Part shown: positions 2,077 through 45,881 of the stretch, one piece after another | How positions within the stretch are numbered: position 1 is the stretch's first letter | Layout: every line of letters begins with the position of its first letter | DNA from: Octopus sinensis | Lineage: Eukaryota | Direction: 5' to 3' | DNA: 64,000 nt | Assembly (NCBI RefSeq): GCF_006345805.1 | Contig: NC_042997.1 | Span: 108,748,001-108,812,000, forward strand | Made by a program: the position numbers and the translations under genes | The notes under the pieces: model-generated | What the model was told of the DNA's origin: nothing | Database searches by the model: none | The model's input: the letters and a program-made list of their open reading frames with translations, nothing else

Positions 2077-2080
2077 GGAT

Positions 2081-20803: not shown

Positions 20804-21230
20804 TTCATATAAAATTAGTGTACATTTATACACAAAAGAGGTGATTCTTACAGGACACCATACATGATAAAAGAAGCAGTCAAAGCCCAAACTTTTGAAG
20901 GAAGTCGACAAATATATTTTTATTTCCTACCGACTATATCTGCGCTTGCGCGGTGGATTTGAAAATTTATAATGTATAAAGATGAGACATGTGCTGTCTC
21001 ATAATTATACGTTAATTATGCTGATGAAGAACACGGATAGCAAATTATTTTACTTGTTCATTAATGTTCGAAACCTAGGTACAAGTGGTAACTGTTGAAA
21101 ATGTTTTTATTTTTCATCCCCTTCGAAATTACTCTTAAACGTGGTTTGGGCTTTGACTGCTCTTTTAGATGTAAGATGTCCTGTTATGGTAACCTCTTTT
21201 GTGTATAAATGTATAATAATTTTATATGAA
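20804..21230 (+). mobile_element. Non-coding inverted-arm cassette with internal hammerhead
   Basis: Arms 20804-20892 and 21144-21230 are imperfect reverse complements; HHR core at 21021-21081. Confidence 0.7.
21016..21085 (+). ncRNA. Hammerhead ribozyme, type I
   Basis: CUGAUGA-A-GAACA...UGUUC-GAAAC-CUAG-GUA; intact core and palindromic loop 3, weak stem I. Confidence 0.75.
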
Positions 21231-21324
21231 AAAATAAGTTGTCTATTGACTATTTTATGTATGCTGGGCCCTGGTAGAAAATTTCCCTAATTTTTATACC
21301 CTATATATATTTTCTTAATATATA

Positions 21325-22612
21325 TTGAGTTGGCAACTAAGTTCCCACCGTTTTTTTAAATTTAATTTTTTAAAAAGGTTTAATAAAAGATAACTAATTA
21401 ATCAATAATGTATTCACCCTTGTTGTTTACAACTTCTCCCCAATGTTCAACAAGATTTTCAATAACTCGTTGTTTGTTAGAAATCACCCAATTTCGACTC
21501 GAAAAATTGATCCAAACAAGCTCCCAATTCTACATCAGTATTGAACGAAATTCCGCGCGTAGCATTTAAAAGAGATCGAAAGAAGTGGAAATCCGTTGGT
21601 GCCAAATCAGGAGAGTACGGCGGGTGTGGCAGCACTTTCCAGCCATGCGTTTGAATGGCTTCCTTGGTCATATTGGCGATACGAGGGCGGGCTTTGTCGT
21701 GCAGCAGAAGAACTCCATGCTGACGATTAGGTCTTTTCTCTTGAATAGCCGTGTTGAGTCGTTCCATCTGTTGAACATAGAGTTCCGCGTTGGCCGCTTG
21801 GTTCCGTTGAAGCAATTCGTAATGGATAATCCTTTTCCAGTCCCACCATACGCAGAACATCGTTTTACGCGGATGAAGATCTTGTTTCACGCGCAGTGTC
21901 GCTTGTTTACCGGGGCTAAGCCATTCCTTACGCTGCTTCATATTGATGTGCAGACACCATTTTTCGTCGCCAGTAACGATTCGGTAAAGAAATCGTTGCT
22001 TGTGTCCATGAGTTGAGTGGTGACGAGCAAGAAAACCAGCGGAGATTGTGGCTTGTTGATTTTTGTTGTTGTTACTTAAAGTATGCAGAACCCATGCTCC
22101 ATACTTCTGTACCTTTCCCATCGAGTGAAGATGCTTCTCTATAGCAGTGTGGGAGTATTCCATTTTCTATGCCAGTTCCCTTATCGTTTGACGAGAATTT
22201 TCGTGCAAAAGTTGGTTTAATCGCTCTTCATCGAACTCAACTAGACGGACAGAACGAGGTGCGTCTTTGAGGTCAAAATTTCCATTTTTGAACATGGGAG
22301 ACCAATCACGAGCGGTTCTTTCAGCTATAGTACCATCTCCATACACAGCACAAATATCGCGAGCAGCTTTTGCGGCCTTAGAACCTTGATTAAAAGCAAA
22401 AAGGTGTCAAAAATGCTCGTTTTTCTTAACTTGATATTCCATTTTAATGATCTGAAAATAAACAAAAATTAACTAAAATTAACTAGGAAAAAAGAAACGA
22501 TTCCAAAATGATTCAAAAATAGAATTCTCGAGAAAAATAGATTCCAAAATTTAAAAACGGTATAAATTCCAAAATAAAAAAAAAAAACGGCGGGAACTTA
22601 GCTGCCAACTCA

Positions 22613-22613
<1 letters not shown>
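21325..22613 (-). mobile_element. Full-length (~1.29 kb) mariner transposon
   Basis: TIRs ttgagttggcaactaagttccc / gggaacttagctgccaactcaa, flanked by TA on both sides. Confidence 0.95.
21398..22442 (-). pseudogene. Mariner DD34D-type transposase with in-frame stops
   Basis: MEYQVKKNEHF*..., WVLHTL, VTGDEKW, LLHDKARP, HPPYSPDLAPTDFHFF. Confidence 0.92.
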
Positions 22614-22667
<54 letters not shown>

Positions 22668-23069
22668 GTGTGTGTGTGTGTGTCTGAGTGTGTGTGTTTG
22701 TATGTATCTATTTGTGTCTCAATTTTGGCACGTATATCTGTGTTTTTGTTTCTCGCCACTACTTGAGATGTGGTGTTGGTTTGCTTACGTCTCCGTAACT
22801 TAACGGTTTTGCTGAAAGTGACGATAGAATAAATGCCAGATATACGAATTGCATTCCAGAAGTTTTGAGACGTTTTTAGGCGAAGCGATTATAACTGTTC
22901 TAGATTGTTGTCATCTTAGTATATCAATATTATACTTCTAATAAGCTGACCTGCCACCTTCAGTAATTCCCGATTGAAGGAGACGGCTGTAACAGCCCTT
23001 TGAGCACACCCTACTAAACAATGCTTGCTACAGCTGACTAGTTTGCAGAATGCAGTCGGGACGCGAAGA

Positions 23070-23596
23070 CAATTGATGGAGCTGCTGCTAGTATGGTTTA
23101 CAGTTTTCTCTCTTTTCACAACCCTATAGCAACATTTATCCTGACCAAACTTCAACTTCTAAGACCTTTGAGAATGTGGTAACCAGGTCAAGGCTCTTTT
23201 TCATCTCGTGCATATTCTTTGCATATAGTTTCAAGTCATTCACAAAGAAACTGTGTAATTTTGGTATTTCTATTTCCTTGTGAAGCAGTGAGATATCCTT
23301 CAGACTTCCTTAAAATGAATGACAAGGGGTTTACAGAAAGTATAAACATCTTGGAGAGGCTGTCCCCTTGGAATATTCCTCTGCGATACTGTATTTTATC
23401 AGCGATAATACAATCACTCCTTGTATTTAATTTAAAGATTGTGGCCACGATGAAGTCAGGTCAGCTACGGTTTTGACTATGCTCACCGAAACTCGAAGGA
23501 ATTCTAGCATCCATGAGTGGGAGACAGAGTCAAAGGCTTTCTTGTAGTCTAGCCACATTGAAACTAGGTTCCTTCTATACTCCTGCACCTCTGACA
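23070..23596 (-). pseudogene. R4/Dong/NeSL-type reverse transcriptase fragment
   Basis: VWLDYKKAFDSVSHSW, RRGIFQGDSLS..FILSVNPLSF, KFGQDKC. Confidence 0.85.
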
Positions 23597-23699
23597 TGAG
23601 TTTGTTTGTATGTATGTATGTATGTATGTATGTATGTATGTATGTATGTATGTATGTATGTATGTATGTATGTATGTATGTGTGTGTGTTTGTATGTAT

Positions 23700-24730
23700 A
23701 GAACCGGTTTCTAACCTAGATCCAAGGTTCCTTCATTGGAATTTCAACATCAACAACAGGGTATTTTGTGTCTATAGTTACATACCTAGACATGCTCATA
23801 TATATTTAGATGATAAACTTCTGGAAAGTTTTACAGATTTTTACAGTTCCAGTGATGGATTGGATCTGTAGTCTTCGAATCAGCTTTCTCCTCTCTGGGT
23901 TTGAGAAGCCTAATTTCTCAAGATTGGCATTTAGGCAATGTGTTACATATATCAGGTCCCCAATAATTACAGATATAAATTGAACTTGTAAGCTGGATAG
24001 TGTAACTGCGGATTTTTCAGTAGTTTAGCGTAGCTATTTTCTTTTTCACTGATCTTCAGCTTTATGTTAGCATCCGCTGGACAGTTAATTTCCACAACTG
24101 TACACATCTTCTCTTGTCTGTCCTAAATCGTTATATCAGGTATGTTGTGTTTACATTTTATTGAGGTTCTCACAGAGACATTCCACCATTATTACTTTTT
24201 ATTGTGAGTGGCGATGGCTTCTACCATATTGTAGATTCTTATTTCTTTGTCATCGGGATTATCCTTCCGACGGATTTCATTATACAGTGCCCTAGATACA
24301 TCATGTCTCATCAGTAGATAATATCGTGATGACATTTTCGGGCAACTGCTTATGATGTGGGTGATATCTTCAGTGTGAACTCCACAAAATCTGTATCGGT
24401 CGTCACATCGTACTGCTTTTCCTGCATCTCTGTCCCTTTTGTGCATAAAATATTTGGTTGATATTTCTTGTTCTTGGATTGCAAACGCATACCCTTCAAA
24501 GTGGGCGGTAGTAATCCGGTTGTTGGTCCATGATAAACTGCTTTGATGATCGATGTCGTTATCATCTCGGAGCCTTCTACTAACATATCCATGCATAGTC
24601 TTCTGCTCATATAGGCTCATCCTTTCATTTGATGATACGTTGCGGTAGGGTTGTGCGACTTCTTTGGGCATGTATTCTAGATTATCAGACAAAGAATGTT
24701 GTTCAAGGAGCTGCCCTTCAAGTCTTATGA
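23700..24730 (-). mobile_element. R4/Dong/NeSL-type retrotransposon 3' part (zinc knuckle, restriction-like endonuclease, 3'UTR) between (TACA)n tracts
   Basis: FAIQEQEISTK, RFCGVHTEDITHIISSC, RHD, HNIPDITI..VVEINCP..EK, ending ITGTVKICKTFQKFII* at 23806; (TACA)n tail at 23597-23699. Confidence 0.88.
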
Positions 24731-25194
24731 TGTATGTGTGTATGTATATACATAAACAAACGGACATAGAAGTATTATCAATGTATACATGCATGTTTGT
24801 ATATGTGCATGTATATATATACATGTATATATATTTTTATGCATGTATTTATATGGAGAAAGGAAGAGAGAGAAAGCATGAGAAAGACTTGGTGTGTGTG
24901 CGCGTGTATGTGTATGTTCCCGTTTTAAGGTAAATAGGGTAAGCCTTTATAGTTGTAACTTAATCTCCTCAGGACCCGGATGTAGAGTTCCTTATCAAAA
25001 CTATTAAAGCATAAATATTATAAAATTACTGAAGGCCATACCCAGGGGGACCAGCTGCGCAAAAAGCATACAGCTAAGTTTGTGCTAAAATATTTAATGT
25101 AGTGAGAAAAAATTTAATTAGTTATAAATAGAAATTAACTATAAATATACACATAGCAATGAAATCGAGGAGGCAAGGAGTGCGTCTGCTGGGA

Positions 25195-25690
25195 GCACAC
25201 AGCGAATATGTATCGAGACATGAATGCTGAAATGCTGAGGAGAATAAGGCCAGGGTGGAAAGCCTTTGCCACGATAAAAGATGTGTTCAAAGCAAAGCTA
25301 CACAAGACCCTAAGCCCACTCTCTTCAACAGCACAGTCGTATCTGTGTTCTTATAGGCAAGTGAGACGTGGGCTACGATGCGAATGGCTGTGGAAATAGT
25401 CATGTTTGGAATATCCATGTAAGAGCATATACGAAATGAGATAATTTAAGAATGGAGCGGAGCGAAAGATGGGATTTGCAGAATAGCGAAAGTACGGGTT
25501 TCGTTGGGTCGGACAGGCGGACCCGTGTAGTTGCAGAGTGGTAGCCAAAAGATCGGAAAAGGAATCACAGACGACCTCCAAGTTAACTGAAGACGATTTA
25601 GTCTAATGATTTGGGCCAAAATCGAAAAGTGGGGCACAATCATGAAGTAGCTGGCAGCCCGTTGTGACCAGCGGTTTATAATAACATCTG
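25195..25690 (+). mobile_element. RTE-clade LINE 3' fragment, decayed
   Basis: EMLRRIRPGWKAF..IKDVFK, ASETW, RWVGQ, W*PKDRKRNHRRPP. Confidence 0.7.
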
Positions 25691-25799
25691 CTTGATACTA
25701 GATACATACATACATACATACATACATACATAGATACATACATACATACATACATACAAACATACATACATACATACATACACGCACACACACACACAC

Positions 25800-25831
<32 letters not shown>

Positions 25832-26059
25832 CATACACACAGACACATATATATACATACACACACACATATATATACAAATATACAGATATATATATAC
25901 AAACATATATGTATATATATATATACACACACATATTTATATATATATAAATTTGTTAAAAAGGAAAACAAACCTCAAGTCAAGACTTCTCAAGTCATAT
26001 ATGTTATTATTATTAAAAATAATTATATATATGACTTGAGAAGTCTTGACTTGAGGTTT

Positions 26060-26265
26060 GTATGTGACCTCGTGTGTACCGTTGGCGATTTTTTTCTTCT
26101 GTCTTCCCTTCTCTGGATCTTTCCTTCTCCTATGTTTCCGACGAAGAGCTCCGCTCGAAACGTTAAACCCTCCTTCTTTCCTTCTTTCCTGAGCATCCAA
26201 TAATACTATATTTGTTCCACGTCCTCGCGTTGGGTTTTTTTGTGCTTTCTTGTTTGGATTAACTT
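26060..26265 (+). mobile_element. PLE-type pLTR cassette with hammerhead
   Basis: Contains HHR at 26134-26168; its 3' part recurs inverted at 27245-27317. Confidence 0.65.
26134..26168 (+). ncRNA. Minimal hammerhead ribozyme motif
   Basis: guuu-CCGACGA-A-GAGC-ucc-GCUC-GAAAC-GUU-aaac; stem I guuu/aaac, palindrome AACGUU. Confidence 0.7.
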
Positions 26266-26717
26266 TAATAATAACATATATGACTTGAGAAGTATTGACT
26301 TGAGGTTTGTTTTCCTTTTTAACAAATTTATATATATATACATATGTGTGTGTATATATATATATATACATAAATGTATGTATATATATATATATATATC
26401 TGTATATTTGTATATATATATATGTGTGTGTATGTATATTTTAGAATTTTAAAGTATTGCAACTACTTCTGAGATATCCCCAAAACATGTGGAATATACC
26501 CTTAATCGGAGACAGATGGTGAGAAATTGAGAGGGTATAGAATATGGAAACGATGGAGAGATGTAGAAAAAAAAGAGAAAAAGGAAACTATATATAAAAT
26601 TTCACAGTTTAAGTTTCCGATAGATCAGGTGTTAATCCATGAGCCTTTAGGTACAATCCAATGTGGATCCAGGTAAGATAATATTCCTAATATTGTAGAT
26701 GTCTAGGAAGAATACTT

Positions 26718-26786
<69 letters not shown>

Positions 26787-26999
26787 TGATAAAATTAGAA
26801 ATAAAATTAGAAATAAAATTAGAAATAAGCCACAATCCTTCACAATCTATGATCCCAGTAAGTTTCATGCCTTCTTGGAAGTGTAGTATATTCTTAGCTA
26901 CAATAGCAACAACATAAATTTCTTCCATCTTCTTGCTCTGTTAAAGCATTTCAGTAAACTTATATTAATGTGTCCGACTGATTAAAATTCTATTTATTT

Positions 27000-27087
27000 G
27001 TGCAGCTGAAAATAGCACTACATTTAAAGTGATGTAATGATTGCACTGTTCAATTAAATGGAGCTGCCTGAAACGGTTGTACTGCAT
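27000..27087 (+). ncRNA. Hammerhead motif, paralogue of 2231-2320
   Basis: gugcag-CUGAAAA-uagca...ugccu-GAAAC-gguu-GUA-cugcau; stem I fully paired with a different sequence; G8 is replaced by A. Confidence 0.7.
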
Positions 27088-27637
27088 CACTTCTTGATAT
27101 CCTGTTGCTTATTTTGATTTTATTCACCTTACTTCGAGCTGTGCAGATAATAACGGACTGATTTGGTGCTTCAAATTAAGTACCTAATTCAACTGGTTTC
27201 TCAATTACTTATATATAATTACTTATATATATATATATATATATAGTTAATCCAAACAAGAAAGCACAAAAAAACACAACGCGAGGACGTGGAACAGATA
27301 TAGTATTATTGGACGCTATATATATATATCCATATTATACATACACACATTAGTCCAAGCGGATTAGGTCCTTAAATAGTAAGGTACCAAGGTCGGGTTA
27401 ATAAAATCGCCATCGCATACAAAACAAAATTAGATGAACATATACGTACATACCGAAGTAAAGATGGATTTATATTCCATCTGCATGTGCGATCACAGTC
27501 GTCCGATTGAATATACTACAAGTCTCAAGACAGCACCTAGGTACTAGCACTGCATTTAATAGACTCCAGATTCACCCCAGTTGCAGGTTCCATGTAAGGC
27601 CAATAATAAACAAATAACAACAGATGGATAGTGTTTC

Positions 27638-27724
27638 ACTCACTACAGCTGTTTCAAGCGTGTTTTTATAGATGAATATAGTTATTACATAATGTAAAAA
27701 ATAACCCGTTTTCATCAGGTGAAT
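27638..27724 (-). ncRNA. Hammerhead ribozyme, type I, long stem-II insert
   Basis: auucac-CUGAUGA-aaacggg...cacgcuu-GAAAC-AGCU-GUA-gugagu. Confidence 0.8.
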
Positions 27725-28029
27725 ATATTCACGAATTAAACACGTTAAAAACATTCCGAGAGTAGAAAAACTGCCAACAACTGATGAAGGGTCGTTCTTT
27801 ATGTTGTTTGTCTTGTTTTCCATTTGTGTCTTTCATTGTTCGAAAAATAGTTCCTATTCCATGTACTCGTACTTCGTATTTTTTGTTGTACATGTTTGGT
27901 GACGCCCTGTGCCCGTGCACATATATATACGTATAGATGTATGTGCATATATGTATGTATATGTGCATATGTGTGTGCGAGTATGGTTATACAGGCGAAT
28001 ATATATATGTATATATATGTATATACACG

Positions 28030-28074
<45 letters not shown>

Positions 28075-28204
28075 CACACACACACACACATATATATATA
28101 TGTATATATATACTTGTTGTGAATAGAAACAGATATCACATTAATAATTAACTGGAGGTCATGAAAATACGCGGGGAGATACGGATTAAACTAATTAATT
28201 ATCA

Positions 28205-28346
28205 ATATATTGGTGGCTAACCGCACCATTTCATCAGACAATATCCAGTCACTGATTGGCATGATTAAAACTAACTTTGATCATTGATCTTGCCGATAAA
28301 TAGGCTGGATATTGTCTCATGAAATGGCGCTTTTAGGCAATAATAT
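28205..28346. repeat. Imperfect foldback / MITE-like hairpin
   Basis: ccatttcatcagacaatatccag vs ctggatattgtctcatgaaatgg, with weaker pairing further out. Confidence 0.6.
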
Positions 28347-28981
28347 AAAATTGTGTAATATCACGTGACGTTATGCATTGTTGATATAAACAATTACGCT
28401 GCTGATACTCGTGTAGCCATGTTTTGAGCTGTTTATTGTTGTTGCTTTATATAAAAGGATATTTATCAGCATGAAAGAGTACGTTCGATCATAAAATTTG
28501 AACTCTAAAGGTACCTAAATCGGTTGATACAACAACAATGGAAATAGTGCATGCCAGAGAAAAAGAAACACAAACAGACAGACAGACAAACAGACAGATA
28601 GATAGATAAATAGATATATAGATAAATAGATATTATGAAAGCAAAGTAATCAAAAGGGAGTTTCTGTTTCGGATGCTAGTCTTTCTTCAGAAGAAAAGAA
28701 AAGAAAAAAATGCAAAGGGTGAGTGAAAGAAGAAAAAGTAGTTTGAAGAAGAAAACGAGCGATGGTTAGGACCTGGAAGAAATGTTGTTCCAGTGGGAGC
28801 TGGAAAGAAAGGAGAGGAGGGGTATTTGTGGACGTAGAGGAGTGTAGACGTGTACTGAGATACGCATATGATGAGAGAGGTGCGTGTATGTGATAGAATG
28901 TTACTCGAGGAAGATTTTGCTTGCTATTTGGAAATTACATCTCAGATTAAATCTCTGATTTCTTCCACTTCACTCTCTCTC

Positions 28982-29066
<85 letters not shown>

Positions 29067-30199
29067 GATGTATACCCATCTCTTATTCCTTTCTCACTGT
29101 CAATTTCTCTCTCTCTCTTCATCTCACTGTCATTGATTTCTTCCTTAATCTCCATCGCTTCGCCCTTTCTTTCTTTCACTCTCACCACCTCTTTCTCTCC
29201 CTTTTCTTCTTCTCATTATCAGTTCTTCACTTTTCACCCCTTACATCAAACATATTGAACTGACTTCAAATCTGCCAGACACCATTTTTAACTTTCGAAC
29301 TATCTCCATTATTTTAAGAATTATCCAAATTGTTTCAAGAAAGTTCTTTTAAGTTTTATACAGCACCTGGTTTTACCGTTTCCAATGACTTACCTTTATC
29401 GAATCACCTTTCGAAGTATTGTCTGTTGTCTATGTGTCTATGTTTCTATATGTGTTCGTGCGTGTGCGTCAGTGTGAGTGTGCATGTGTGTGCCTGTGTG
29501 CATAAGCATGTATGTAGATATACGTGTGTTGGGGCCAGCATATGTATGCAAGTGCGTCAAATGTATGTTTATGTATGTGGATATATGGGAGCATTTACAC
29601 GCTTGTATGCATCTGTATGTATCCACGTACACACACACACACACAAACATATATATATATATATATTATATATATATACACACATACAAACATATATAAA
29701 TATGTGTGTGAGCATTTATTTGTATGTGTAGGCATCTGCTATATGTATGTATATATATATATAGATAGATATACACATGCAGTTATATATTTAAATGTGT
29801 ATGTGTGCGTATCCACTTTATATATATGTATGTATTACATACATATATATGTGTGTGTACGTGTGTATGTGTTTATATCCATTAGCTTATCTTTATTGCC
29901 ATGTTAGGAATAATTTCAGAGAAGGAAAAAAGCACAACCTAAAAGCAAACCGAAAACAACAACAAAAAGCAAAGCGTCTGTATCACCAGTAATGTTTTAT
30001 AGCCGAGTGTGAAAGTGACGCTTTCTTGTCATTTTCGCATTCTCTTACCAGTACCAATTTATCTCGCTCCGTTTTAACTTTGAATATACTGCAGCTCTAA
30101 CCGCAAACGTATAAAACATCATCATATTTTTTTTATAGCATATTTCGCTAGCATCACATTCGCCAGGCACACACACACAATACATTCATATGTACGTAC

Positions 30200-30268
<69 letters not shown>

Positions 30269-30929
30269 AGCATACACATATATGTATGTACAAGTATACA
30301 TATATATGCATACATACATATATGCATAAATATATATATACATACACACACATGTGTATTTATTCACACACACACTCACGTATATTCTTTTTCTTTTAAA
30401 ACTTTTCGCCATTAATTTAATCTCCTATTCAATTCGACTGATTAAATCATTTTTTTTCTTGTTTTGTTTCTCTTTAAAAGTTTACTTGTAAATATCACTG
30501 TGTGTTGACACGTTTTCTATGTTGAGAATGGGCAGAGAAAAAGCTTCGCTTTACCATGCCAGTGTGTATGATAAAATATGAAACACCTACACTTTGTTGT
30601 CATATATATATATATATATTTAACCACGTGACTTCCAATGGATTACGGCCATCTCGCAACCTTCTTACGTAGACACCTCACATCACACATCCTTCACATC
30701 CTTCACATCCTTGCAATTGATTACTATGTGGACAGTTAGCCGAGTCCGTAAGAGGAGCTTCCTATGTTAGCTGCACGATTCTCTGAATCTACATCTTATA
30801 TTACTCATTTCTAAATTTAATACATCCCCATTTTTCGCCCGGGCACAAGTACAGAAAATATTTAATAGGTTAGTTACTCAGCTTCTAAATATGTCTGGTG
30901 TTATATCAGAGGTCATAATGCCGCGATGT

Positions 30930-31390
30930 TGAATAGAAGAGAAATGCAAATAGCTAGTCAACAAAGATATTTCAACTGTAAGTTTCGTGAGAAGTGTCCC
31001 CTATACGGTAACTGCCTGGCAAAGTCGATAGTATACTGTGAAGAGAACGAATCAAACAGCAGTAATCAACCTAAAGCTTATAAAGAAACGGGACTCGCGT
31101 TCAAAAGTCGTTATTACAAGCATAAACATTCATTTGTCAGCTCCGGCGGAAAATTTGTCATAGCTTTGTCAAAGTTTATATAGCGTGAGACAAATCGTCA
31201 TGAATTCAAAATTATCTGGTCTACAGTAGATAATGTGCAGGAATGGGAGCATCAAATCAAAGATGCAGCGTGACCTTTGTGCGAAAAACTGAGAATCTTT
31301 ACTCAAACGCTTCAATAGTTTGAACAAAAGAAGTGAACTGCTAACGCCTTGTATGTACGCGGCTAAGTATCTTTTATGCAAATACAAGTC
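30930..31390 (+). pseudogene. Decayed PLE GIY-YIG C-terminal domain
   Basis: NCKFREKCPLYGNCLAKSIVY...FKSRYYKHKHSF...LSKFI...IIWS...LNKRSELLTPC..AKYLL. Confidence 0.8.
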
Positions 31391-32441: not shown

Positions 32442-32516
<75 letters not shown>

Positions 32517-35154: not shown

Positions 35155-35232
35155 TGAAGGATCGCTTAGCTTAATAGTCCAGAGCCCTGAGCTGTAATTC
35201 GGGAGGTTCTGGGTTCGACTCTCTGTAGCAGC
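35155..35232 (+). mobile_element. tRNA-like SINE head
   Basis: A-box tagcttaatag, B-box ggttcgactc; no complete cloverleaf. Confidence 0.45.
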
Positions 35233-35745: not shown

Positions 35746-35830
<85 letters not shown>

Positions 35831-36387
35831 AATTATATCAGAAGAGTTTAAATTTAAACTGAGGGATGAAACAGTAGTTTTTAGTTGACTACAAATATAA
35901 ATACATTTACATTAAGTTTAGAAAAAAAATGTTGACAGTAACTTCGAAGTTTTCACCTTCCTCACCTTCTTAATAACGTACACACACACAGACACACTCG
36001 CATGCGTGCGCATATCTATATGCATAAGTAAATGAATGTGCTTGTGAATACGTATATCCTTGCCAAATCGCTTCTTAATATATGTCGGTCGGTTTTGCTT
36101 TTTTATATTTGAAAATTGAACTCCACCTCCTGCTCAGTGAGCATCCCCACCACCAATCCTCCTCGGTGACTAAACAACCGAAACAGCTGGCTTTCATTTT
36201 GATTGCCCAATCATAATTGAGATAAATGTTGGAATATTTGTACAACTGGGACCAATATTTTTCGGTTTCCATCTTTATTTCATATATTTTCAAATATATA
36301 TTTATGAAAAAGGAATGTATATGTATATGCATGCATGCATACATATTTACCTACCTACATACATAATGCATACAGATACATATATGA

Positions 36388-36453
<66 letters not shown>

Positions 36454-36565
36454 CGAGGTTAAGAAAGAACTTACTAGATCTACAAAGCAAACTGTAAAAT
36501 TATATTATTAAAGAATTAAATTGATTAAAACTATCAGTGAGGTCATTCTTTTCCTTTTTCAAATA

Positions 36566-37250
36566 TACGTGTTCTGATCAATAAGTATCCGGACTATTGC
36601 CATAATAACGAAGCTAAAGCCTGCATAATGAAGCCGCTTGGCACAAATTGACTATAAACTCTTCTGTGCATTTGTACTAAGTTTTGATTTTGTAGCTCAC
36701 TTCTACTGTTTACAGCAGTGCTTGGAAGAACTGTGTATAGAGTGTGATCGTCACATTGACCATGACAGAAAGTTGAGCCGAGAATCTGCGTCAAATTTTG
36801 CCAAAAGCTTGACGATACCTGTTCAGATGTCTACGCAAAGATTTCAAAAAGATTTCATCGTTCTCGACACAATGAAGGAGACCTTGTGCAACTGAAACCC
36901 GAGTGTCTTCTTGGTTAGCTGAAAGCAGTTCTGGCACAAACTTGGTAGACACGCGTCTCATACCCAAATCTTCAACCATAATAGAATGAACTGAACCATA
37001 ACTAATCTGCACATCCTCTGATAACTCACGGATGGGGATTCGACGATTTCCCTTCACAGCTGCACCCACATCCGCGATATCTTGCTCAGTTCTGCTGGTT
37101 GCAGCCCTCCCAGAACGTTTGTCAATATCGACGTTTTTTCGGCCATCTTGGAAACATCTGAAACACTCGTACACTTGTATGCAGCTCATATACTCCTCAC
37201 TATACACTTTCTGCAATTTAGTGTAGGTCTCTTAGCAGGTATCGCCATGA
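36566..37250. mobile_element. Two convergent mariner fragments
   Basis: + strand TIR-like start and RICVKFCQKLDDTC up to ~36840; minus strand 37250-36843 has FQDGRKNVDIDKRSGR...IRELSE...LGMRRVSTKFVPELLS. Confidence 0.8.
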
Positions 37251-37263
37251 CAGATTTCTCTGT

Positions 37264-37315
<52 letters not shown>

Positions 37316-38235
37316 TACACACACACACATATATATATGTACATACATTGGAAGAATGAGAAAATAAATGACTTTTAATCCGGAATCTTCAAGACATCGT
37401 TTGTATTAACAAATGGCAATTTAGAGCAACATCCAAGTACAAAACTAAAGAAGATAGTCCCCCCACACTAACCCCTCCCCCCAAAAAAAAACACTGCTGT
37501 TTTGACTTTGCAAACGACTCTCTTTACTACTATCTGGTTTACCATACAGGCGACCTTTTCATTCTTACCCACAAGTTACATTTATTACTTTTCTCTCTCT
37601 GAAATCTGCTTACTTTCCTTCTTGCACACATTGTCATACATATACACACACATTACACACACACGGACGCATACAGACACACTTGTGAGCTCGTACACCT
37701 CCACATGTTAACTCATTCAAACAACATGGCCGTTCTGGCAGCTAAATGAAAACACGGTAGACTCGCTTCTATTCAAACGAGGGAGACGTTAGGCATACAT
37801 CACTTAATGTCTAATGCCATCTCTGTCTATACGGACATTCATTAATAATTGAGTTGACTTGGCAAGAAAATCAATGAGGAAATTACCTGGTCACACCATC
37901 CGCGTAGAAATCATAGTTAAGTTAGTGCTAAAATAGTGAATACAATGAATGAAAGTCAGTAAGATTGACTTAATAAAATATTTGTGACGCTGGCGTCAGG
38001 ACTGGGTGTAGATCTTTTAATACCCTAATCACAACCTAACAATATTGTCGCCCACCTTTACACCTCTTCTGCCAAAACGACAAGAGATGACAGCAATACA
38101 TGCTGTTTGGATAATATTGAATTATAAAACCCAGATTTCTCGCAGTTAGAAGCCCCTGGGTCAGACTCCCTCGTCTCACAAATCTATTTTAAATAAAACA
38201 CTGTTTGTTTGCCATTTTCTTCATTTAACATTAAA

Positions 38236-38391
38236 TAACACACTCACCGGTAAAATTTCCACTTTTTAAATTATTTTTATTGTCCCAAAATTTTCGTTGC
38301 GTATTGCAACCTTTTCAATAGTTTTGACTCTCAATAGTTTTAGGACAATAAAAATAAAAAAAAAGTGGAAATTTTGCCGGTGAGTGTGTTA
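38236..38391. mobile_element. Inverted-arm cassette with degenerate HHR-like core
   Basis: taacacactcaccggtaaaatttccac... vs ...gtggaaattttgccggtgagtgtgtta; minus core UUGAAAA-g-GUUGC-aauac-GCAAC-GAAAAUUU. Confidence 0.6.
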
Positions 38392-38574
38392 CATAATAAG
38401 GCACAAAAAGAAAATGACTCTCTCCAGACACAACAGAATATGCTTCAACACACGAACTCATATAAAGAATCTTGCAAACCAAATCCCAAAATGAAATTAA
38501 ATAACAGGGAAATACATAAACAAATTATTTGCTTTTAATTATTATCATAGGGAATTATGAAACATTCCAACACA

Positions 38575-38657
<83 letters not shown>

Positions 38658-38751
38658 GGAGCACATAAAACTTATAATGTGCGATTTGCACCAAGGTAAA
38701 TCTGGTTCTGGAAAAAACAAACAAACAGAAAGAAAAATCTGTGTCGTAGAC

Positions 38752-38813
38752 GCTTCCCTTAGCGTTCCCTTCCCCTAGCGTTCCCTTCCCTTAACGTTCC
38801 CTTCCCTTAGCGT
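38752..38813. repeat. 16-bp minisatellite (cttcccttagcgttcc), about 4 copies
   Basis: Directly visible. Confidence 0.85.
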
Positions 38814-38969
38814 CCGATAAATACCGGAGGGATGTAGTTCCATAGATCAATTTTATTAATCGATCGATCCAAGGTAGATCCCCCCCCCAAAAAAAAATAG
38901 AGAACAAATAGAGAACAAATCATGCTTCGCTATCTTCAGAGCCACAGTGAACTGAAAGTAGGGAATTTG

Positions 38970-39009
<40 letters not shown>

Positions 39010-39141
39010 AGATAATGGTGTCATTGAGACCCAAAGGTGGCAGGTAATGCTGAATAAGTGCTATAGATAGACCATAGTTAAGTTCCAGATTCGGTAATAT
39101 TGCGAATAAAGGGTTCAACGTTGGTTCTATGTCAGCGAGTG

Positions 39142-39518
39142 TATATAAGAATTTTTTGCGTAATAAGATAAAAAAAACCCAAGGCTGTGTAGATATTAGA
39201 ACATTTATAGATAGAAGGTCTTACAGCTGTTTGGACTTTACTCATAGGATATTGGAATATTGCATGTATACCAATATGCATAAAATGGATTTACAACTTC
39301 AATACCCATACATATCTTGCATCTATTTTCTTTCCTCCACCTCACTCTCTATTTTGTATCACATCTAAACTTACTATGACCATCCTCTCACACCATCTCC
39401 GATGAAGGAATATAATTAATAAATATCATAGAAACAGCTGTAAGACCTATCTATAAATGTTCTAATATCTACACAGCCTTGGTTTTTTATCTTATTACGC
39501 AAAAAATTATTCTTATAT
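39142..39518 (+). mobile_element. Non-coding inverted-arm cassette with hammerhead
   Basis: Arms 39142-39231 and 39432-39518 are near reverse complements; HHR ucu-CCGAUGA-aggaauau...auaucaua-GAAAC-AGCU-GUA-aga at 39396-39445. Confidence 0.75.
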
Positions 39519-39522
39519 ATAT

Positions 39523-39802
39523 ATGGTTCCGGGTTCAGTCCCACTGCGTGTTTGTCCCCCCACCATCGCTTGACAATCGATGTTAGTGTGTTTACGTCCC
39601 TGTAACTTAGCGGTTCGGCAAAAGAGAGTAATAGAATAAGTACTATCCTTAAATCCTTTAAAATGTTTTAGCCCGAAGGCCGCGGCCATGCTGGGGCGCC
39701 ACAGCTTACAAAGAATATGTCCTGGGGTCGATTTGTTCGACTAAACGCAGTGCTCCAGCATGACCGCGTTCAAATGACTGAAACAAATAAAGAAATAAAA
39801 GA
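39523..39802 (+). mobile_element. SINE family A, internally deleted
   Basis: Head motif joined directly to the 3' half. Confidence 0.8.
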
Positions 39803-40179
39803 ATGTGAGTGTGTATTCAGTGACAAGAGAGGATAAAGGACTGACCTTGGTGAGTATAAGCCGTGATGGCACAAAGTTAGCGAACCTTTCTTTAATTTTC
39901 CCAGAAATGATAGAATAAAGTACCAGTAATAAGCTGAGGTAGATTTAGTCGTCTGTAACCTACTTTAGCCTTTGTAATTAATTTGTGATTATGTTAGGAG
40001 CGGATCTTTTAACAGAGGAGATACATTCAGCTCTTACTTAACGTGGTTGCGTTTGCATTACAGAAGCGATAAATGAAAATACCCGTGGCATACTGAGGGT
40101 AGTTCAGTTGACTAAATCCCAATCAAAGTGAGGAATGATTAATTTACATTAAAGAAAGCTCTTGCGTTTTGCGTCTGCG

Positions 40180-40746
40180 GCGTTTGCATGACCTGTCTGG
40201 AAGAAATCAGCCCATGTTAAGAAACCTGACCCAGCACGCAACGCAACTACTGCTTGGGTCACTGGCTACACGAAACTCGCCAACACAAACAACCTGCACC
40301 ACCACGCTGGCATTGCCCCTACCGGTATCAGATGGGGTGTGGCCTGTCCAGTCTAAACAACAAAGGCTACTAGTGATGAACGCTGCCTCCTGCCCAGCGA
40401 TTGAAGTCAAAGAGAAGCTTCCTCAGTCGTATTCAGCTTTTAACAACATAGAAAGAAACGAGATACCATTTCTGGATGGAATCGCTTGAGAGCGATTCTC
40501 CCCCAAGTGACATAGGAACCGCCTCTCTCATGTCCTCCGTTCTGGCTCAGAAGCACCATGGACTCACTCACCCGAGAACGAGAACGGGATAACCAAAAGT
40601 TACTTTAACCAAATGGGGCTATCCAAGACCGGCCCAACCATCTGTTAATTTGGACAAGCAGACCATGCTTTCAAGCACTGCCTTATCCTCCTTCTTCTAC
40701 CAAAGACTTGTAGCTCAAGAGACTTGCAGAATTCAATAATAATAAT
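40180..40746 (+). mobile_element. RTEX-like LINE 3' fragment with (AAT)n tail
   Basis: TGYTKLANTNNLHHHAGIAPTGIR, later W..L...R...KW-like segment. Confidence 0.55.
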
Positions 40747-40770
40747 TCAAAGCAGTGAGAGATTGTTATG

Positions 40771-40850
40771 GAACCATTTATACTTTGAAGAACCATTTAT
40801 ACTTTGAAGAACCATTTATACTTTGAAGAACCATTTATACTTTTGAAGAA
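40771..40850. repeat. 19-bp minisatellite gaaccatttatactttgaa, 4 copies
   Basis: Directly visible, no spacers. Confidence 0.9.
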
Positions 40851-41039
40851 TTGAAAGTTAATGATTATGCTAAATATAGTTGGTGAATCTCCCTCAAAGC
40901 TCACCATCTTAAACAGTGAAGGAACTCGCGTATAATGTAACCCATAGAATAGACGGGAAGGACATGGTTGGAATGCTTTAGAGCGTAGGTCTTGTTGAAC
41001 CGACCTAGAGCGAAACAACATCGACAGCACTAACAGGAT

Positions 41040-41112
41040 AATCGTCATACCATCATCATCACCATCATCTTCATCATCATCATCATCATCCTCATCAATC
41101 ATCCTCATCACT

Positions 41113-41174
<62 letters not shown>

Positions 41175-41215
41175 CATCCTCCTCCTCATCATCCTCATGA
41201 ATCATCATCATCACT

Positions 41216-41259
<44 letters not shown>

Positions 41260-41297
41260 AATAATCATCATCATCATTATCATCATCATCATCATCG

Positions 41298-41341
<44 letters not shown>

Positions 41342-41479
41342 GTCGTCATCATCATCCTCGTCATAATCCTCATCATCATCACCACCATCATCATCATCAT
41401 CGTCGTCATCATCGTCATCATCATCATCATCATCATCGTCATAATCATCATTATCATCATCATCATCATCATCACCACC

Positions 41480-41511
<32 letters not shown>

Positions 41512-41530
41512 CGTCATCGTCATCATCATT

Positions 41531-41570
<40 letters not shown>

Positions 41571-41820
41571 ACAGTGATAGCATCAACAATGCCAACATCG
41601 ACATCACCATCACCACCACCACCACCACCACCACCACCACCACCTCCACCACCACCACCTCCACCACCATCATCACCACCACCACCACCACCACCACCAC
41701 TATCATCATCACCACCATCATCATCACCACCACCACCACCATCATCATCACCACCATCATCATATCACCCCCCCCCAACCACCATCATCCTCACCACCAC
41801 CATCATCACCAACAACAACT
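41040..41820. repeat. Compound (CAT)n/(CAC)n trinucleotide tract, ~780 bp
   Basis: Directly visible. Confidence 0.95.
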
Positions 41821-42487
41821 GTTGTTTCAGCTTAATATGATTTCATGACCAGTTGTTATTACACTAACCAAAATGTCTGATTTGATTCGCTCAGTTTCTG
41901 TCTGCTCTTAGATTTCTGTTTTTCAGTCTCTTTTATTCAAATATATTTTTCCAATAAAATAAAATACTCCAACAAATGATAAAAATAAATACGCATAATA
42001 AATAAAACATACACATACAAATAATCAGGAGTCGCCATATTAGCCACTACAAAAGTTACAGCAAGATTAACGACCATTAACTTCCGGTGTCCTGCCAACA
42101 ACATTTTCTTCTTAAACACCAGATAAACCCAAACATTTTGTTCGCCTTTTATTCGCTTTCCTTTCCTTTTCTTTTTACTGCCGCCACAAAAAAATAAAAC
42201 TCTTTCATCTTTCTTTTTCTTCCGTTTTGAACAATTCTTTCTTTCTTTCTTTCTTTCTTTCTTTCGCTCACTTTATTATTCTATCTTTGTCTACTTTTCT
42301 CTCTTTCCCCCTCTTCCTTCTCTCTCCTCTCTCTTTCTCTAAATATGTATGTTTGTGTACGTATGTACACAAACCCATACACACAAGCATACACACACAA
42401 ACACACATATATAGTTATTAGTACCGTTATGGTTAAACGGAATAATAAAATACATATAAACACACACAAGTATGATATATGAGATGT

Positions 42488-42528
<41 letters not shown>

Positions 42529-42919
42529 ATGTGTGTATATGTATGTGTGTAAAATGATTTATTTGAATTCTTTACATCATTCCTTCTAGCCAACCCACCC
42601 CTCCCTTCATCTCCAGCAGAACTCTCAAGACAGTTGGTAAATCTTCTGTGTTTAGTTTACCAAATTTATTATCATCTCTTTCACTCTTTCACAAACATTC
42701 TTCTTTCTATATATGTTTATTTTACAGCTTGTACTGATTTTATTTATTGGACGGGGTTTTCAAAGGTTTTAGCCAATCATATTAACTCCATAGTAACTCC
42801 ACTTATTTTACCAGTATCTATTTATCGAATTGTTAAGTTGTAAAGAGATGCAGATTTATAACGCTATGTACAAATAGGCAAACATAGACGCACAAACACA
42901 CATTCACATATATAATATG

Positions 42920-43072
42920 TATACGACGGGCTTCTTTCAGTTTCCATCTACCAAATCCACTCACAAAGCTTTGGTCGGCCCGAGGCTATTGTAGAAGACA
43001 TGCAATAGGACTGAACCCGGAGCCATGTGGTTGGTTAGCGAGCTACTTACCACACAGCCACACCTGCGCCTC
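42920..43072 (-). mobile_element. SINE family A, 5' half
   Basis: Reverse-complement match to the family A head. Confidence 0.8.
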
Positions 43073-43075
43073 GCC

Positions 43076-43109
<34 letters not shown>

Positions 43110-43182
43110 ATATATAATATAATATAATATATAATATAATATAATATATATACCTACATATACCTACATATACATACATACA

Positions 43183-43218
<36 letters not shown>

Positions 43219-43327
43219 TACACACATTTATTAAAGCTGCAATTAAAAAGCATATTACTCTACTTTCGGTATTCGAGTACTGCTATTTTCACTTTGTGTA
43301 TTTGTGTGCTTGCTCGTGTGTGTGTGT

Positions 43328-43380
<53 letters not shown>

Positions 43381-43384
<4 letters not shown>

Positions 43385-44307
43385 GGTATGTAGAAAAATA
43401 CAACATGGACAAGAACGTATAACTCTTAGAAGACGACACAATAAACACGGACAGGACACTCGAAACCCTCAGTCTTCAGTCAAGAACCGGATCATCGTAG
43501 TAATTTCGGCTGATTAATCTTGAGATTACTAGATCACGGCCAGCCCTCCAAGAAAAACTAAGCAACGAGCATTAGAAAAACTAAGCTGGAAGCGTAGATT
43601 TCTGGAAGAAGGATCGAATGCATACGAACACCAGGACAGCAAAAGGGACAGATATAAAAAAAACAAAAAACAATAATGGAATACAGAAACATGAAATACA
43701 GAAGCATTAACGGTGAAAACAACAAGTGTCTTACGACTGATAACAAGCAAACAAATTTTTTCTCTGGCGCATTGGAAGAAGCCTTTATAGCGGCGGACGA
43801 AAAACAACGATGTTAACACGACGAGGGTCAGGAGCTGAAAGGCAGATTTCGGCCAACAGTCACGTGACAGAGAAGAGGGAAAAGAAAAGAAAGAGAAGCA
43901 AAGGAAGAGAGAGAGAGAGGAGGGACAAACGCAACAAAGAGAGAGAAAGAAGGAATCAGAGAGGAGAAGGGATGGGTGTCGAAGAATGACCTGTGAGTGC
44001 AGAGCGAGACAAAGAAATAGGAGGGTAGTGGAAGACTAGACCAAAGAATCAGAGGAAAGAGAAGAGAAAAAGAGGATGAGTAGAGGGAAAAGAGAGAGAG
44101 GGGGACAGATCAAGTAAAAATGAGAGAGAGAGAGAGACAAACAGAGAGTCGTACCAATTATTAAGAATATGTGCTCACATTAATGATAAGGGGGGTACGG
44201 GGCGCCTGGAATATATGTTAAGGTATGTAGAAAAATACAACATGGACAAGAACGTATAACTCTTAGAAGACGACACAATAAACACGGACAGGACACTCGA
44301 AACCCTC
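43381..44307. mobile_element. Non-coding element bounded by 90-bp direct repeats (PLE pLTR-like)
   Basis: 43381-43470 appears identical to 44218-44307; GA-rich interior; TA-rich flanks. Confidence 0.6.
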
Positions 44308-44487
44308 TATATATCTTTAACATGTTCTTGAGAATGTATATTTATGTTGTAATCTTTTGTGCCCAATATTTTAAGGAACTTGTCAAACTTTTTTATTTCC
44401 TTAATATCTCCTTGTTACCAAAGACTGTATATATGTAATGTAGCATTTTGTAACAATCAATAATTAACGCAACCAAACTTCTACATG

Positions 44488-44532
44488 TTACTTTTGACAA
44501 TCTTTTTCCAAAGAGTCAAACCGGTAAAGTAA
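44488..44532 (+). ncRNA. Decayed hammerhead motif
   Basis: uuacuu-UUGACAA-ucuuu-uucc-aaaga-gu-CAAAC-CG-GUA-aaguaa; stems kept, core mutated. Confidence 0.5.
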
Positions 44533-44611
44533 ATAAACATCTTTTAAAATTGCATTTTCAAACCTTCCGTATATAATTCCACTCGTGCGGTACCCTACAA
44601 CTCCACTTTGT

Positions 44612-44642
<31 letters not shown>

Positions 44643-44697
44643 GGACCGCCGAAATCTTAAAGTGTTTTTCATTCCCTCTGTTTCTTTTCTCTTATTC

Positions 44698-44732
44698 CTT
44701 TCTGTTGAAGAGCGAAGGCTCGAAATGTAAAA
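44698..44732 (+). ncRNA. Hammerhead-like motif in a PLE pLTR (44645-44825)
   Basis: uuu-CUGUUGA-A-GAGC-gaag-GCUC-GAAAUGUA-aaa; same family as 1024-1061. Confidence 0.6.
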
Positions 44733-44824
44733 CACTTTTTCATTTTCCCGAGCGTCAAACTAATACACTTGCTTGTTGTTCGTACACCTATCTTCGTCTT
44801 TAGTTCTTCTATAAATTTCAACTA

Positions 44825-44923
<99 letters not shown>

Positions 44924-45655
44924 AAATAATAGTTTAAAACGTTGGAGGTATTCAGATGTGATTACATCTTTCGCCGCGGAAAGAGTCCCGCGAGAAAAGT
45001 TACATATACACACGCGCGCGCACGTATGTATGTATGCATACATGTATGTATGTAAGCGTACTCTTCAAATGGAATGCTACGTATCCGCGACTTGAAAGCT
45101 TCATTTGTCAGTGTATTTGAGGAACCGCCGAAGTCACAGTCACCTTGCACTTCGTGTACATAAGGATTTTAGACGCTACGAGTCATTTACCATATGATCC
45201 GATGCTTTTAAGATTTCTTCTGATAGAAACTCAAAATACAACGTACACTCACAGACACACTCACACACAGTCACACACACGCACGCACGCATGCGCGCTT
45301 ACACACACATCATTAATTCAGAGAAAATATATCAAATTTCGAGATCTGAATCTAAAATTATCACATTCAGATTTAAGTTGCTTTGGAAATTTCTTTAATC
45401 TTTCATCAGAAAATAAAAGCTCTTCAAATGTTGGATGAAAAACTTTCTAACGACTATCTTTTGAAAAATTTCACTCCGACATAGAGAAAAGCTTTTGGCC
45501 TGACGAAGGCCCAAAGTAATTTGCTAAGAAACTAAAAACTAAAAAAACATTAGCTAATTTTTCTGTACCAGAAATGAAATACTTTCATTGCATCGATATT
45601 ATTTCGCCTCTATATCGCCGTTCACTACATTTTGACTTCTCAATCTCTCTTACTC

Positions 45656-45881
45656 TGTACATTATTTACATTTGACGAGTATATGTCCTCATCCTGTTTG
45701 TTGTTAACACAACGTTTCGGCTGATATACCCTCCAGCCTTCATCAGGTGTCTATGGGGAAATTTCGAACCTGGATTCTCATTCCTAAGACACCCGATGAA
45801 GGCTGGAGGGTATATCAGCCGAAACGTTGTGTTAACAACAAACAAGATGAAGACAAATATCCGTCAAATGTAAATAATGTA
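45656..45881. mobile_element. Palindromic cassette: two inverted ~95-bp arms, each carrying a hammerhead
   Basis: Minus 45751-45706 gacac-CUGAUGA-A-GGCUG-gaggguauau-CAGCC-GAAAC-GUU-guguu; plus 45788-45833 is the same with CCGAUGA. Confidence 0.85.

What the first reader, a model, noticed from the sequence alone, without database searches (positions are those of the whole stretch)
20804..45881. Recurrent architecture: short non-coding cassettes made of inverted arms plus a hammerhead
Seen: four cassettes with no obvious mutual sequence similarity (20804-21230, 38236-38391, 39142-39518, 45656-45881) share one plan. Sequence at or downstream of the HHR is repeated in inverted orientation upstream, and there is no ORF. 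Established: PLE insertions often carry an inverted, truncated pLTR at the 5' end. Inference: these are non-autonomous ribozyme-bearing retroelements mobilised in trans by PLE RT/GIY-YIG (remnants at 1807, 11430, 30930). Repeat pipelines would likely mislabel them as MITEs.
Basis: partly seen in the sequence, partly recalled or inferred. Interest (0 to 1): 0.75.

Follow-up and report, generated by a model that had tools for sequence, protein, structure and literature searches.

The report
Three Penelope stubs, one retrozyme
The four mirror-armed repeats with a hammerhead-ribozyme motif are short insertion stubs of Penelope-type jumping genes: three come from protein-coding elements of their own, and the fourth is a 450-base repeat without a gene that likely borrowed such an element's enzyme.

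Summary
The arms and minimal hammerhead motifs are real, and the four families are unrelated in sequence. Each cassette runs 48-135 nt further on one side than reported. Copies are not MITEs. In head-to-head copies one arm stops at a 'long' and the other at a 'short' fixed 3' end (D 27/28, B 45/47, C 9/9, A 12/13). The inner junction varies, and target duplications are 8-18 nt (D 19/28, B 35/54). This is the published Penelope-like (PLE) insertion signature. 'Non-autonomous' fails for three of four: B, C and D continue into their own GIY-YIG and/or RT frames (Neptune-, Hydra- and Poseidon-like). Only A (20798-21325) is ORF-less. It is a circularly permuted ~450-nt unit inserted in (TA)n, with more-than-unit-length copies in 15 of 49 loci, and is likely an old retrozyme moved in trans. 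No partner, complete dimer, RNA or cleavage was shown. B and D also have short tandem deletion derivatives (236-402 nt), possible retrozyme births. This scan has already noted both the PLE stubs and two-armed retrozymes on other DNA of this genome. The architecture is known; A is a modestly interesting new member.

The parts
20798..20892 (-). A: inverted arm ending at the 'short' 3' end, abutting (TA)n/(CA)n
20893..21325 (+). A: sense copy, about one unit of the ~450-nt ORF-less circularly permuted monomer, ending at the 'long' end
21016..21085 (+). A: minimal type I hammerhead motif (long helix II, palindromic helix III); helix I damaged in this copy, 4 bp in the family majority
38236..38331 (-). 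B: hammerhead-bearing arm, cut short at +59
   Evidence: L091
38285..38321 (-). B: minimal hammerhead motif with U3-A8 swapped core
   Evidence: T at 3 in 20/22, A at 8 in 21/22 copies
38338..38497 (+). B: second arm, from the hammerhead's 3' side to the 'long' end; carries the start of the parent ORF. An 11-13-nt target duplication lies at about 38228-38240 and 38494-38506
39007..39232 (-). C: inverted arm from helix III to the 'long' end, abutting (TA)n
39227..39519 (+). C: sense arm, 3' UTR and pLTR of a Hydra-like coding PLE, ending at the 'short' end in (TA)n; ~5-nt microhomology at the junction
39395..39446 (+). C: hammerhead motif with U4C core (family norm, 20/21) and palindromic helix III
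45656..45786 (-). D: longer arm with intact hammerhead motif (45751-45706), ending at the 'short' end
45787..45929 (+). D: second arm with hammerhead motif (45788-45833, U4C in this copy), ending at the 'long' end; first codons of a Penelope/Poseidon-like ORF
1807..2079 (-). GIY-YIG remnant of another PLE family (not a parent of B, C or D)
11430..11800 (-). GIY-YIG remnant of another PLE family
30930..31380 (+). decayed endonuclease-like remnant, Hydra-like by eye only; not confirmed by a profile

Best explanation
All four cassettes are short Penelope-like (PLE) retro-insertions: B, C and D are ends of three protein-coding PLE families, and A is a ~450-nt ORF-less repeat that was likely copied in trans by a PLE enzyme. 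Shown: each family has two fixed 3' ends downstream of the hammerhead (B +107/+165, C +89/+235-245, D +67/+95, A +155/+245, counted from the GAAA box), and head-to-head copies use one of each. Inferred mechanism: the RT-GIY-YIG dimer nicks both target strands 8-18 nt apart. Each nick primes reverse transcription at one of the two internal start sites on the RNA. The two cDNAs run towards the RNA's 5' end, stop at variable places and join head to head, often by microhomology. The palindrome is therefore a by-product of each insertion, not the mobile unit. For A, cDNA passes through the end point and on into the same unit again, which implies a tandem or circular RNA template (retrozyme-like). 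Self-cleavage would need a dimer fold and is untested.
For: End pairing long+short: D 27/28 and B 45/47; C 9/9 and A 12/13 of the first 30 loci, both counted by eye. The B, C and A queries did not reach the long end. Distinct inner junction pairs: 18/28 (D) and 37/47 (B). Target duplications of at least 8 nt: D 19/28 vs 1/216 mismatched-flank controls; B 35/54 vs 9/449. D parent L181: a 320-codon frame through the hammerhead, DKG, RT (Pfam RVT_1, 6e-8) and GIY-YIG-like C-terminus; endonuclease directly upstream of the D pLTR in 2 of 30 loci. B parent: GIY-YIG (Pfam 29 bits, cut-off 22.6) about 1.1 kb upstream in L368, L369 and L374. C parent: RT-like and endonuclease-like frames upstream in L182, L186, L169 and L185 with a CxCX5C linker, which PMC8557442 section 11 gives for Hydra. 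A: HHR-to-HHR spacing 447-463 nt, unit 425-462 nt in 11 loci, 15 of 49 loci continuous over more than 470 nt, majority unit 454 nt with no ATG frame over 50 aa, and 14 of 30 query-unbiased loci pass upstream into the same unit. Two internal RT start sites, both-strand nicking and a predicted dimer are reported for a PLE in vitro (PMC11167929).
Against: C's frames reach no Pfam cut-off (GIY-YIG E 0.051; RT none), so its assignment rests on motifs. For A and C no target duplication above control could be scored because they sit in (TA)n (4/36 vs 50/255; 4/22 vs 22/196). No complete dimer or multimer of A was seen; the longest copy is 666 nt, about 1.5 units. A copies are old (mean 89% identity to the majority). 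Only 30-40 loci per search were scored out of 600-1549 A candidates, so a rare coding parent of A is not excluded. One D junction pair (-69/-40) recurs in 9 of 28 copies (microhomology hot spot and query bias), so some copying of a palindrome cannot be excluded. Twin priming is inferred; PMC3846280 favoured self-priming.
Confidence: 0.8

Rival explanations
1. One reading: all four are non-autonomous ribozyme elements moved in trans by the PLE remnants in the window.
For: Short stubs far outnumber long copies: 242 first-look candidates for D's ORF start against 4609 for the stub, and 254 for C's upstream part against 4025. B and D have ORF-less tandem deletion derivatives. 16 of 29 B copies stop at -23 to -36, so some could come from a short RNA.
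Against: B, C and D each run colinearly into their own coding frames. The window remnants are different families. A surplus of short ends is expected from 5' truncation (PMC8557442, PMC4209133).
Confidence: 0.07
2. A is not a retrozyme but the pLTR of a coding PLE not sampled here, whose master copy had tandem pLTRs or an internal deletion, as seen for D and B.
For: D and B show such derivatives beside coding parents (units 236-402 nt and 327 nt). Sampling was limited to 50 distinct A loci. No full A dimer was seen.
Against: One uniform period in all loci that cross it, against many different lengths in D. No open frame after the hammerhead, unlike B, C and D. No colinear PLE frame joined to any A copy. 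Real units fold better than shuffles (circular z -0.7 to -4.7 in 11 copies, against -0.1 to -2.7 for 4 same-length stretches of B, C and D; only 10 shuffles each, so weak).
Confidence: 0.25
3. The inverted arm arises by fold-back self-priming of one cDNA or an antisense RNA (as proposed in PMC3846280), or by repair after insertion, rather than by priming at two nicks.
For: Junctions often fall on palindromes or microhomologies (C at helix III; B at the GAGAGTC/GACTCTC pair). Arms of one insertion share variants more often than arms of different insertions (B 36/206 vs 298/5451; D 7/95 vs 37/1169), which fits any single-template model.
Against: Fold-back alone does not explain why the second arm stops at the other fixed RT start site in about 95% of copies, nor why either arm can be the one with the longer 5' reach.
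Confidence: 0.3
4. MITEs or foldback DNA transposons with terminal inverted repeats.
For: Short, palindromic, thousands of candidates.
Against: Ends are asymmetric, the target duplication varies from 8 to 18 nt, and junctions vary. Many copies have no inverted arm: 12 of 29 B loci were not scored head-to-head, and 20 of 30 D loci had no arm within 330 nt. Three families run into RT/GIY-YIG frames.
Confidence: 0.01

Closest known systems
Insertions of endonuclease-bearing Penelope-like elements with inverted 5'-truncated copy and tail (PMC3846280 passages; PMC8557442 passages and section 11; PMC11167929 main text, parts 1-2 of 4)
   Same: Head-to-head inverted arm, optional tail at one end, short variable target duplication, hammerhead at the pLTR/ORF junction, (TA)n targeting for the family with a CxCX5C linker.
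   Different: Tails are 28 nt (D), ~58 nt (B), ~90 nt (A) and ~145 nt (C) against the 30-40 nt quoted. Target duplications are 8-18 nt against 8-10 nt. The one-long-one-short rule is counted here.
Minimal type I hammerheads of metazoan PLEs (Cervera and de la Pena 2014, PMC4209133, parts 1-2 of 4)
   Same: Extra base between A9 and G10.1, short helix I, palindromic helix III, the U3-A8 variant, and pairs on opposite strands 100-700 bp apart read as truncated PLEs.
   Different: C has U4C as the family norm and an extra base before GAAA. A has a helix II arm of about 40 nt.
Animal non-LTR retrozymes (PMC7229834 passages and Discussion; bioRxiv 10.64898/2026.07.22.740005 parts 1 and 3 of 5) - for A only
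   Same: ORF-less unit of 150-450 nt, low GC (32%), type I hammerhead, more-than-unit-length head-to-tail copies, PLE proposed as partner.
   Different: No complete dimer or array in 50 loci; dispersed copies of 0.3-1.5 units carry the PLE inverted arm and two fixed ends; the hammerhead is of the PLE minimal or small-helix-III type; no RNA evidence.

Membership tests
EN+ PLE insertion (B, C, D) | Colinear ORF with RT and C-terminal GIY-YIG | tested here: met
   D: RVT_1 6e-8 and endonuclease linked to B's GIY-YIG profile, 2e-17. B: Pfam GIY-YIG above cut-off; B's RT not reached. C: see next row.
EN+ PLE insertion (C, Hydra clade) | RT plus endonuclease with CxCX5C linker, CxxC and CxH motifs, (TA)n targets | tested here: inconclusive
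   Motifs seen in L186, L169 and L185 and match PMC8557442 section 11. No Pfam cut-off reached. No phylogeny run.
EN+ PLE insertion (all four) | Inverted 5'-truncated arm, head to head, with tail on one side | tested here: met
EN+ PLE insertion (B, D) | Short variable target-site duplication | tested here: met
   D 19/28 vs 1/216; B 35/54 vs 9/449
EN+ PLE insertion (A, C) | Short variable target-site duplication | tested here: inconclusive
   (TA)n flanks; not above control
Minimal type I hammerhead | Core boxes, helices I and II, palindromic helix III kept among copies | tested here: met
   In loci chosen by queries outside the motif, 9-letter core intact in A 13/24, B 12/22, C 13/21, D 26/35. 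Mean conservation core vs rest 0.93/0.87, 0.93/0.90, 0.95/0.94, 0.97/0.92 (no significance test).
Minimal type I hammerhead | Self-cleavage | not testable with these tools
   Single window motifs do not fold as a monomeric hammerhead by minimum free energy, as expected for dimer-type motifs
Non-LTR retrozyme (A) | ORF-less 150-450-nt unit with type I hammerhead in head-to-tail arrangement | tested here: met
Non-LTR retrozyme (A) | [quoted passage not shown] | tested here: not met
   Longest continuous copy 666 nt; upstream hammerhead cut or deleted where present. A is therefore called retrozyme-like, not filed as an active retrozyme.
Non-LTR retrozyme (A) | Unit-length linear and circular RNA | not testable with these tools
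   No RNA holder listed; only contigs could be laid
MITE / DNA transposon | Fixed symmetric terminal inverted repeats and constant target duplication | tested here: not met

The most novel reading that the evidence does not exclude
A is a retrozyme family whose genomic copies record which machinery moves animal retrozymes. An ORF-less 450-nt hammerhead RNA, read as a circle or multimer, was inserted with the full PLE signature (two fixed RT start sites, one per arm, inverted arm, (TA)n target), pointing to a Hydra- or Neptune-type partner. The 236-402-nt tandem deletion units of D and the 327-nt unit of B in the same genome are retrozymes being born from coding PLEs by joining the ORF start to the next pLTR.
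Probability: 0.55. Interest if true: 0.55.

Novelty: new member of a known kind. Interest (0 to 1): 0.36.

Why it matters
For three cassettes it matters little beyond repeat annotation: they should be filed as PLE ends, not MITEs. The counted one-long-one-short rule turns the two RT start sites found in vitro into a simple, testable model of how PLE inverted arms form. If A is what it seems, it is structural evidence for the proposed but unshown link between animal retrozymes and PLE enzymes. The published case (PMC7229834; the 2026 preprint) rests on co-occurrence and pLTR similarity. I found no paper showing the PLE insertion signature on an ORF-less unit (searches; library limited to open papers).

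Tried and rejected
1. A strict monomeric hammerhead scan found none of the four motifs, because helix III is a bare palindrome. The Rfam list was swamped by microsatellite matches and cut at 150 of 411 rows. The whole-window repeat search was swamped too.
2. The idea that B has a fixed 5' end and is a short non-autonomous unit was rejected as query selection once a pattern search (179 exact hits) led to its 3' UTR and endonuclease. A weaker pile-up of 5' ends remains.
3. A shared continuation past B's long end proved to be mostly a duplicated flank clustered on contigs C27 and C8753.
4. The idea that D stubs are copies of an RNA leader with a fixed start at -82 was rejected: D continues upstream through (AAT)n and a tRNA-like head to the endonuclease. 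ARAGORN (0 genes in 5 loci) and Rfam did not call that head a tRNA, so the label is by eye.
5. Expression: no RNA holder listed. Four contig sets were laid on A; they show the family under three organism labels but nothing on RNA.
6. Homologue searches for B's endonuclease and C's RT each returned one automatically named Octopus bimaculoides protein, uninformative for clade. The protein atlas gave no answer.
7. Consensus folding of 11 A units: 9 compensatory, 60 one-sided and 79 broken of 1029 cells; no real covariation support.
8. PLE frames near A copies (L039, L049, L051, L055, L247) lie beyond the insertion ends, beyond a (TA)n tract or on the other strand, and were not taken as parents.
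9. Rows dropped before counts: 12 loci fetched twice (A L245 is the same place as L238). One search also left out the reference locus L042 from the length count.
Full report
Setting. The window lies at G000:C1:108748001-108812000 of a 2.72-Gb, microsatellite-rich genome. The only named protein relatives found are from Octopus bimaculoides, so the host is likely an octopod. I call the cassettes A (20804), B (38236), C (39142) and D (45656). Positions such as +67 count from the G of the hammerhead's GAAA box.

Observation. All four have inverted arms of 78-95 nt. All four hold a minimal type I hammerhead motif with an extra base after A9 and a palindrome in place of helix III. B has the swapped U3-A8 core and C has U4C as its family norm. 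The families are unrelated: 13 of 13 cross comparisons scored below the best shuffle. Own-genome searches gave 1549 (A), 1730 (B), 4025 (C) and 4609 (D) first-look candidates, of which 40 were scored and 30 fetched each; these are not copy numbers. In loci picked by queries outside the motif, the nine-letter core is intact in 13/24, 12/22, 13/21 and 26/35 copies, and is as conserved as or slightly more conserved than its flanks. Each window cassette extends further than reported on one side: A to 21325, B to 38497, C to about 39007, D to 45929.

Not MITEs. Each family has two discrete 3' ends (D +67/+95, B +107/+165, C +89/+235-245, A +155/+245). Head-to-head copies use one of each: D 27 of 28 and B 45 of 47, C 9 of 9 and A 12 of 13 among the first 30 loci, the last two counted by eye. 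D's query contained both ends; the other queries did not reach the long end. Inner junctions differ (18 distinct pairs of 28 in D, 37 of 47 in B), although one D pair recurs 9 times at a microhomology. Target duplications of 8-18 nt flank 19 of 28 D and 35 of 54 B insertions, against 1 of 216 and 9 of 449 mismatched controls (5 low-complexity B cases set aside). A and C insert in (TA)n and could not be scored above control. Many copies have no inverted arm. This is the layout described for endonuclease-bearing PLEs: inverted 5'-truncated copy, tail at one end, short duplication (PMC3846280 passages; PMC8557442 passages). Minimal hammerheads in PLEs, the U3-A8 variant and opposite-strand pairs 100-700 bp apart were reported in 2014 (PMC4209133, parts 1-2 of 4).

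Three have coding parents.
D: past the long end the sequence runs into a PLE N-terminus. L181 holds an inverted arm, the pLTR, a 320-codon frame that passes through the hammerhead, the DKG motif, RT (Pfam RVT_1, 6e-8) and a GIY-YIG-like end. The endonuclease lies directly upstream of the D pLTR in 2 of 30 loci. It has no zinc-finger linker, so it is Penelope/Poseidon-like.
C: the arm is the end of a 3' UTR of about 1.2 kb, preceded by endonuclease- and RT-like frames in several loci. The linker is CxCX5C and the targets are (TA)n, the features given for the Hydra clade (PMC8557442 section 11). No Pfam cut-off is reached.
B: it first looked like a short unit with a fixed start. A pattern search (179 exact hits) then led upstream through a CA-rich UTR to a GIY-YIG frame with a CX4CxxC linker in three loci (Pfam 29 bits, cut-off 22.6), and downstream into an N-terminal frame. 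It is Neptune/Nematis-like; its RT was not reached.
The remnants at 1807 and 11430 are GIY-YIG pieces, but of other families; 30930 is endonuclease-like by eye only. The simplest reading is cis mobilisation with 5' truncation.

A is different. Upstream of its hammerhead lies the same sequence as downstream. Hammerheads are spaced 447-463 nt, and units measure 425-462 nt in 11 loci. Fifteen of 49 loci are continuous over more than 470 nt; the longest is 666 nt. Fourteen of the first 30 loci pass upstream through the end point into the same unit, and no other shared upstream sequence appeared. The majority unit is 454 nt and 32% GC, with no ATG frame over 50 codons, whereas B, C and D have open frames after the hammerhead. 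Real units fold somewhat better than shuffles, with no useful covariation. This fits a non-LTR retrozyme (PMC7229834 passages and Discussion; bioRxiv 10.64898/2026.07.22.740005 parts 1 and 3 of 5). Against it: no complete dimer, copies about 89% identical to the majority (old), no RNA data, and only 50 loci seen, so a rare coding parent is possible. D and B also have ORF-less tandem derivatives that join the ORF start to the next pLTR (236-402 nt; 327 nt), which suggests how a unit like A could arise.

Mechanism. Shown in print for one PLE in vitro: nicking of both strands at AT-rich DNA, two internal RT start sites that define the tail, a predicted dimer, and a protein-assisted hammerhead not needed for insertion (PMC11167929, parts 1-2 of 4). 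Inferred here: each nick primes at one start site, and the two cDNAs join head to head, which explains the one-long-one-short rule, the variable junction and the target duplication. Arms of one insertion share variants more than arms of different insertions, consistent with one template. Fold-back self-priming (PMC3846280) remains the rival. A search for 'Penelope-like' with 'twin priming' listed three papers on other subjects (listing only). For A, the template would be a multimer or circle and the enzyme borrowed; (TA)n targeting points to a linker-bearing clade such as Hydra or Neptune.

Earlier notes of this scan report the same PLE stubs, a tRNA-headed family resembling D, and several other two-armed retrozyme families of 352-602 nt in this genome. 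They are unchecked AI notes and not independent support. Sequence look-ups for A and B found no note.

Verdict. Observation partly confirmed; interpretation partly supported. The architecture is known, and three cassettes are ordinary PLE ends. A is a new, old, retrozyme-like family with a PLE footprint. Interest 0.36; new member of a known kind.

Noticed in passing
window 25843-26435: A fifth palindrome: arms partly microsatellite, with a hammerhead-like core (CCGACGA, U4C) at 26138 in the middle; probably nested PLE stubs.
   Followed up: no
window 27650-27725 (-): Hammerhead-like motif with 7-bp helix I and the same helix III palindrome as C, in a different sequence.
   Followed up: no
window 44705 (+) and 1054 (-): Two copies of another hammerhead-like repeat whose core reads U3 with G8.
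   Followed up: no
   Followed up: no
L249-L277, about 100 nt upstream of the D pLTR: Most D copies carry a tRNA-like head with A- and B-box-like motifs followed by (AAT)n, between the endonuclease and the hammerhead.
   Followed up: partly
L278-L307 (B family): 16 of 29 copies chosen by their 3' end stop at -23 to -36, just upstream of the hammerhead; one or two go further. Many start with a G where the parent has C. This could be a transcription start with a cap-derived G, or a stop at the structure.
   Followed up: partly
L012, L125, L127, L131, L132, L136, L137, L143 (D); L371, L372 (B): Tandem deletion units that join the ORF start to the next pLTR. L012 holds an inverted arm plus four ~236-nt units inside a 13-nt target duplication.
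   Followed up: partly
L182, L186, L177 (C parent): Asparagine-rich stretch between RT and endonuclease, like the N-rich inserts of rotifer Penelope elements (PMC3846280).
   Followed up: no
L052 1775-1816 and 1484-1525: Contig depth peaks with loose ends suggest a more abundant family shares two ~40-nt stretches with A; a lead to A's relatives or partner. Not found in my loci.
   Followed up: partly
G000:C14:15133729-15135194 (L180): An ~85-nt tandem array made from a piece of C's 3' UTR.
   Followed up: no
L183 5537 (-): 333-aa intact-looking transposase-like frame inserted upstream of a C copy (family label would be from recall).
   Followed up: no
L051 and L056, upstream of A: In both loci A sits behind the (TA)n tail of another hammerhead-bearing PLE-like end with an ACCGGT palindrome.
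   Followed up: no
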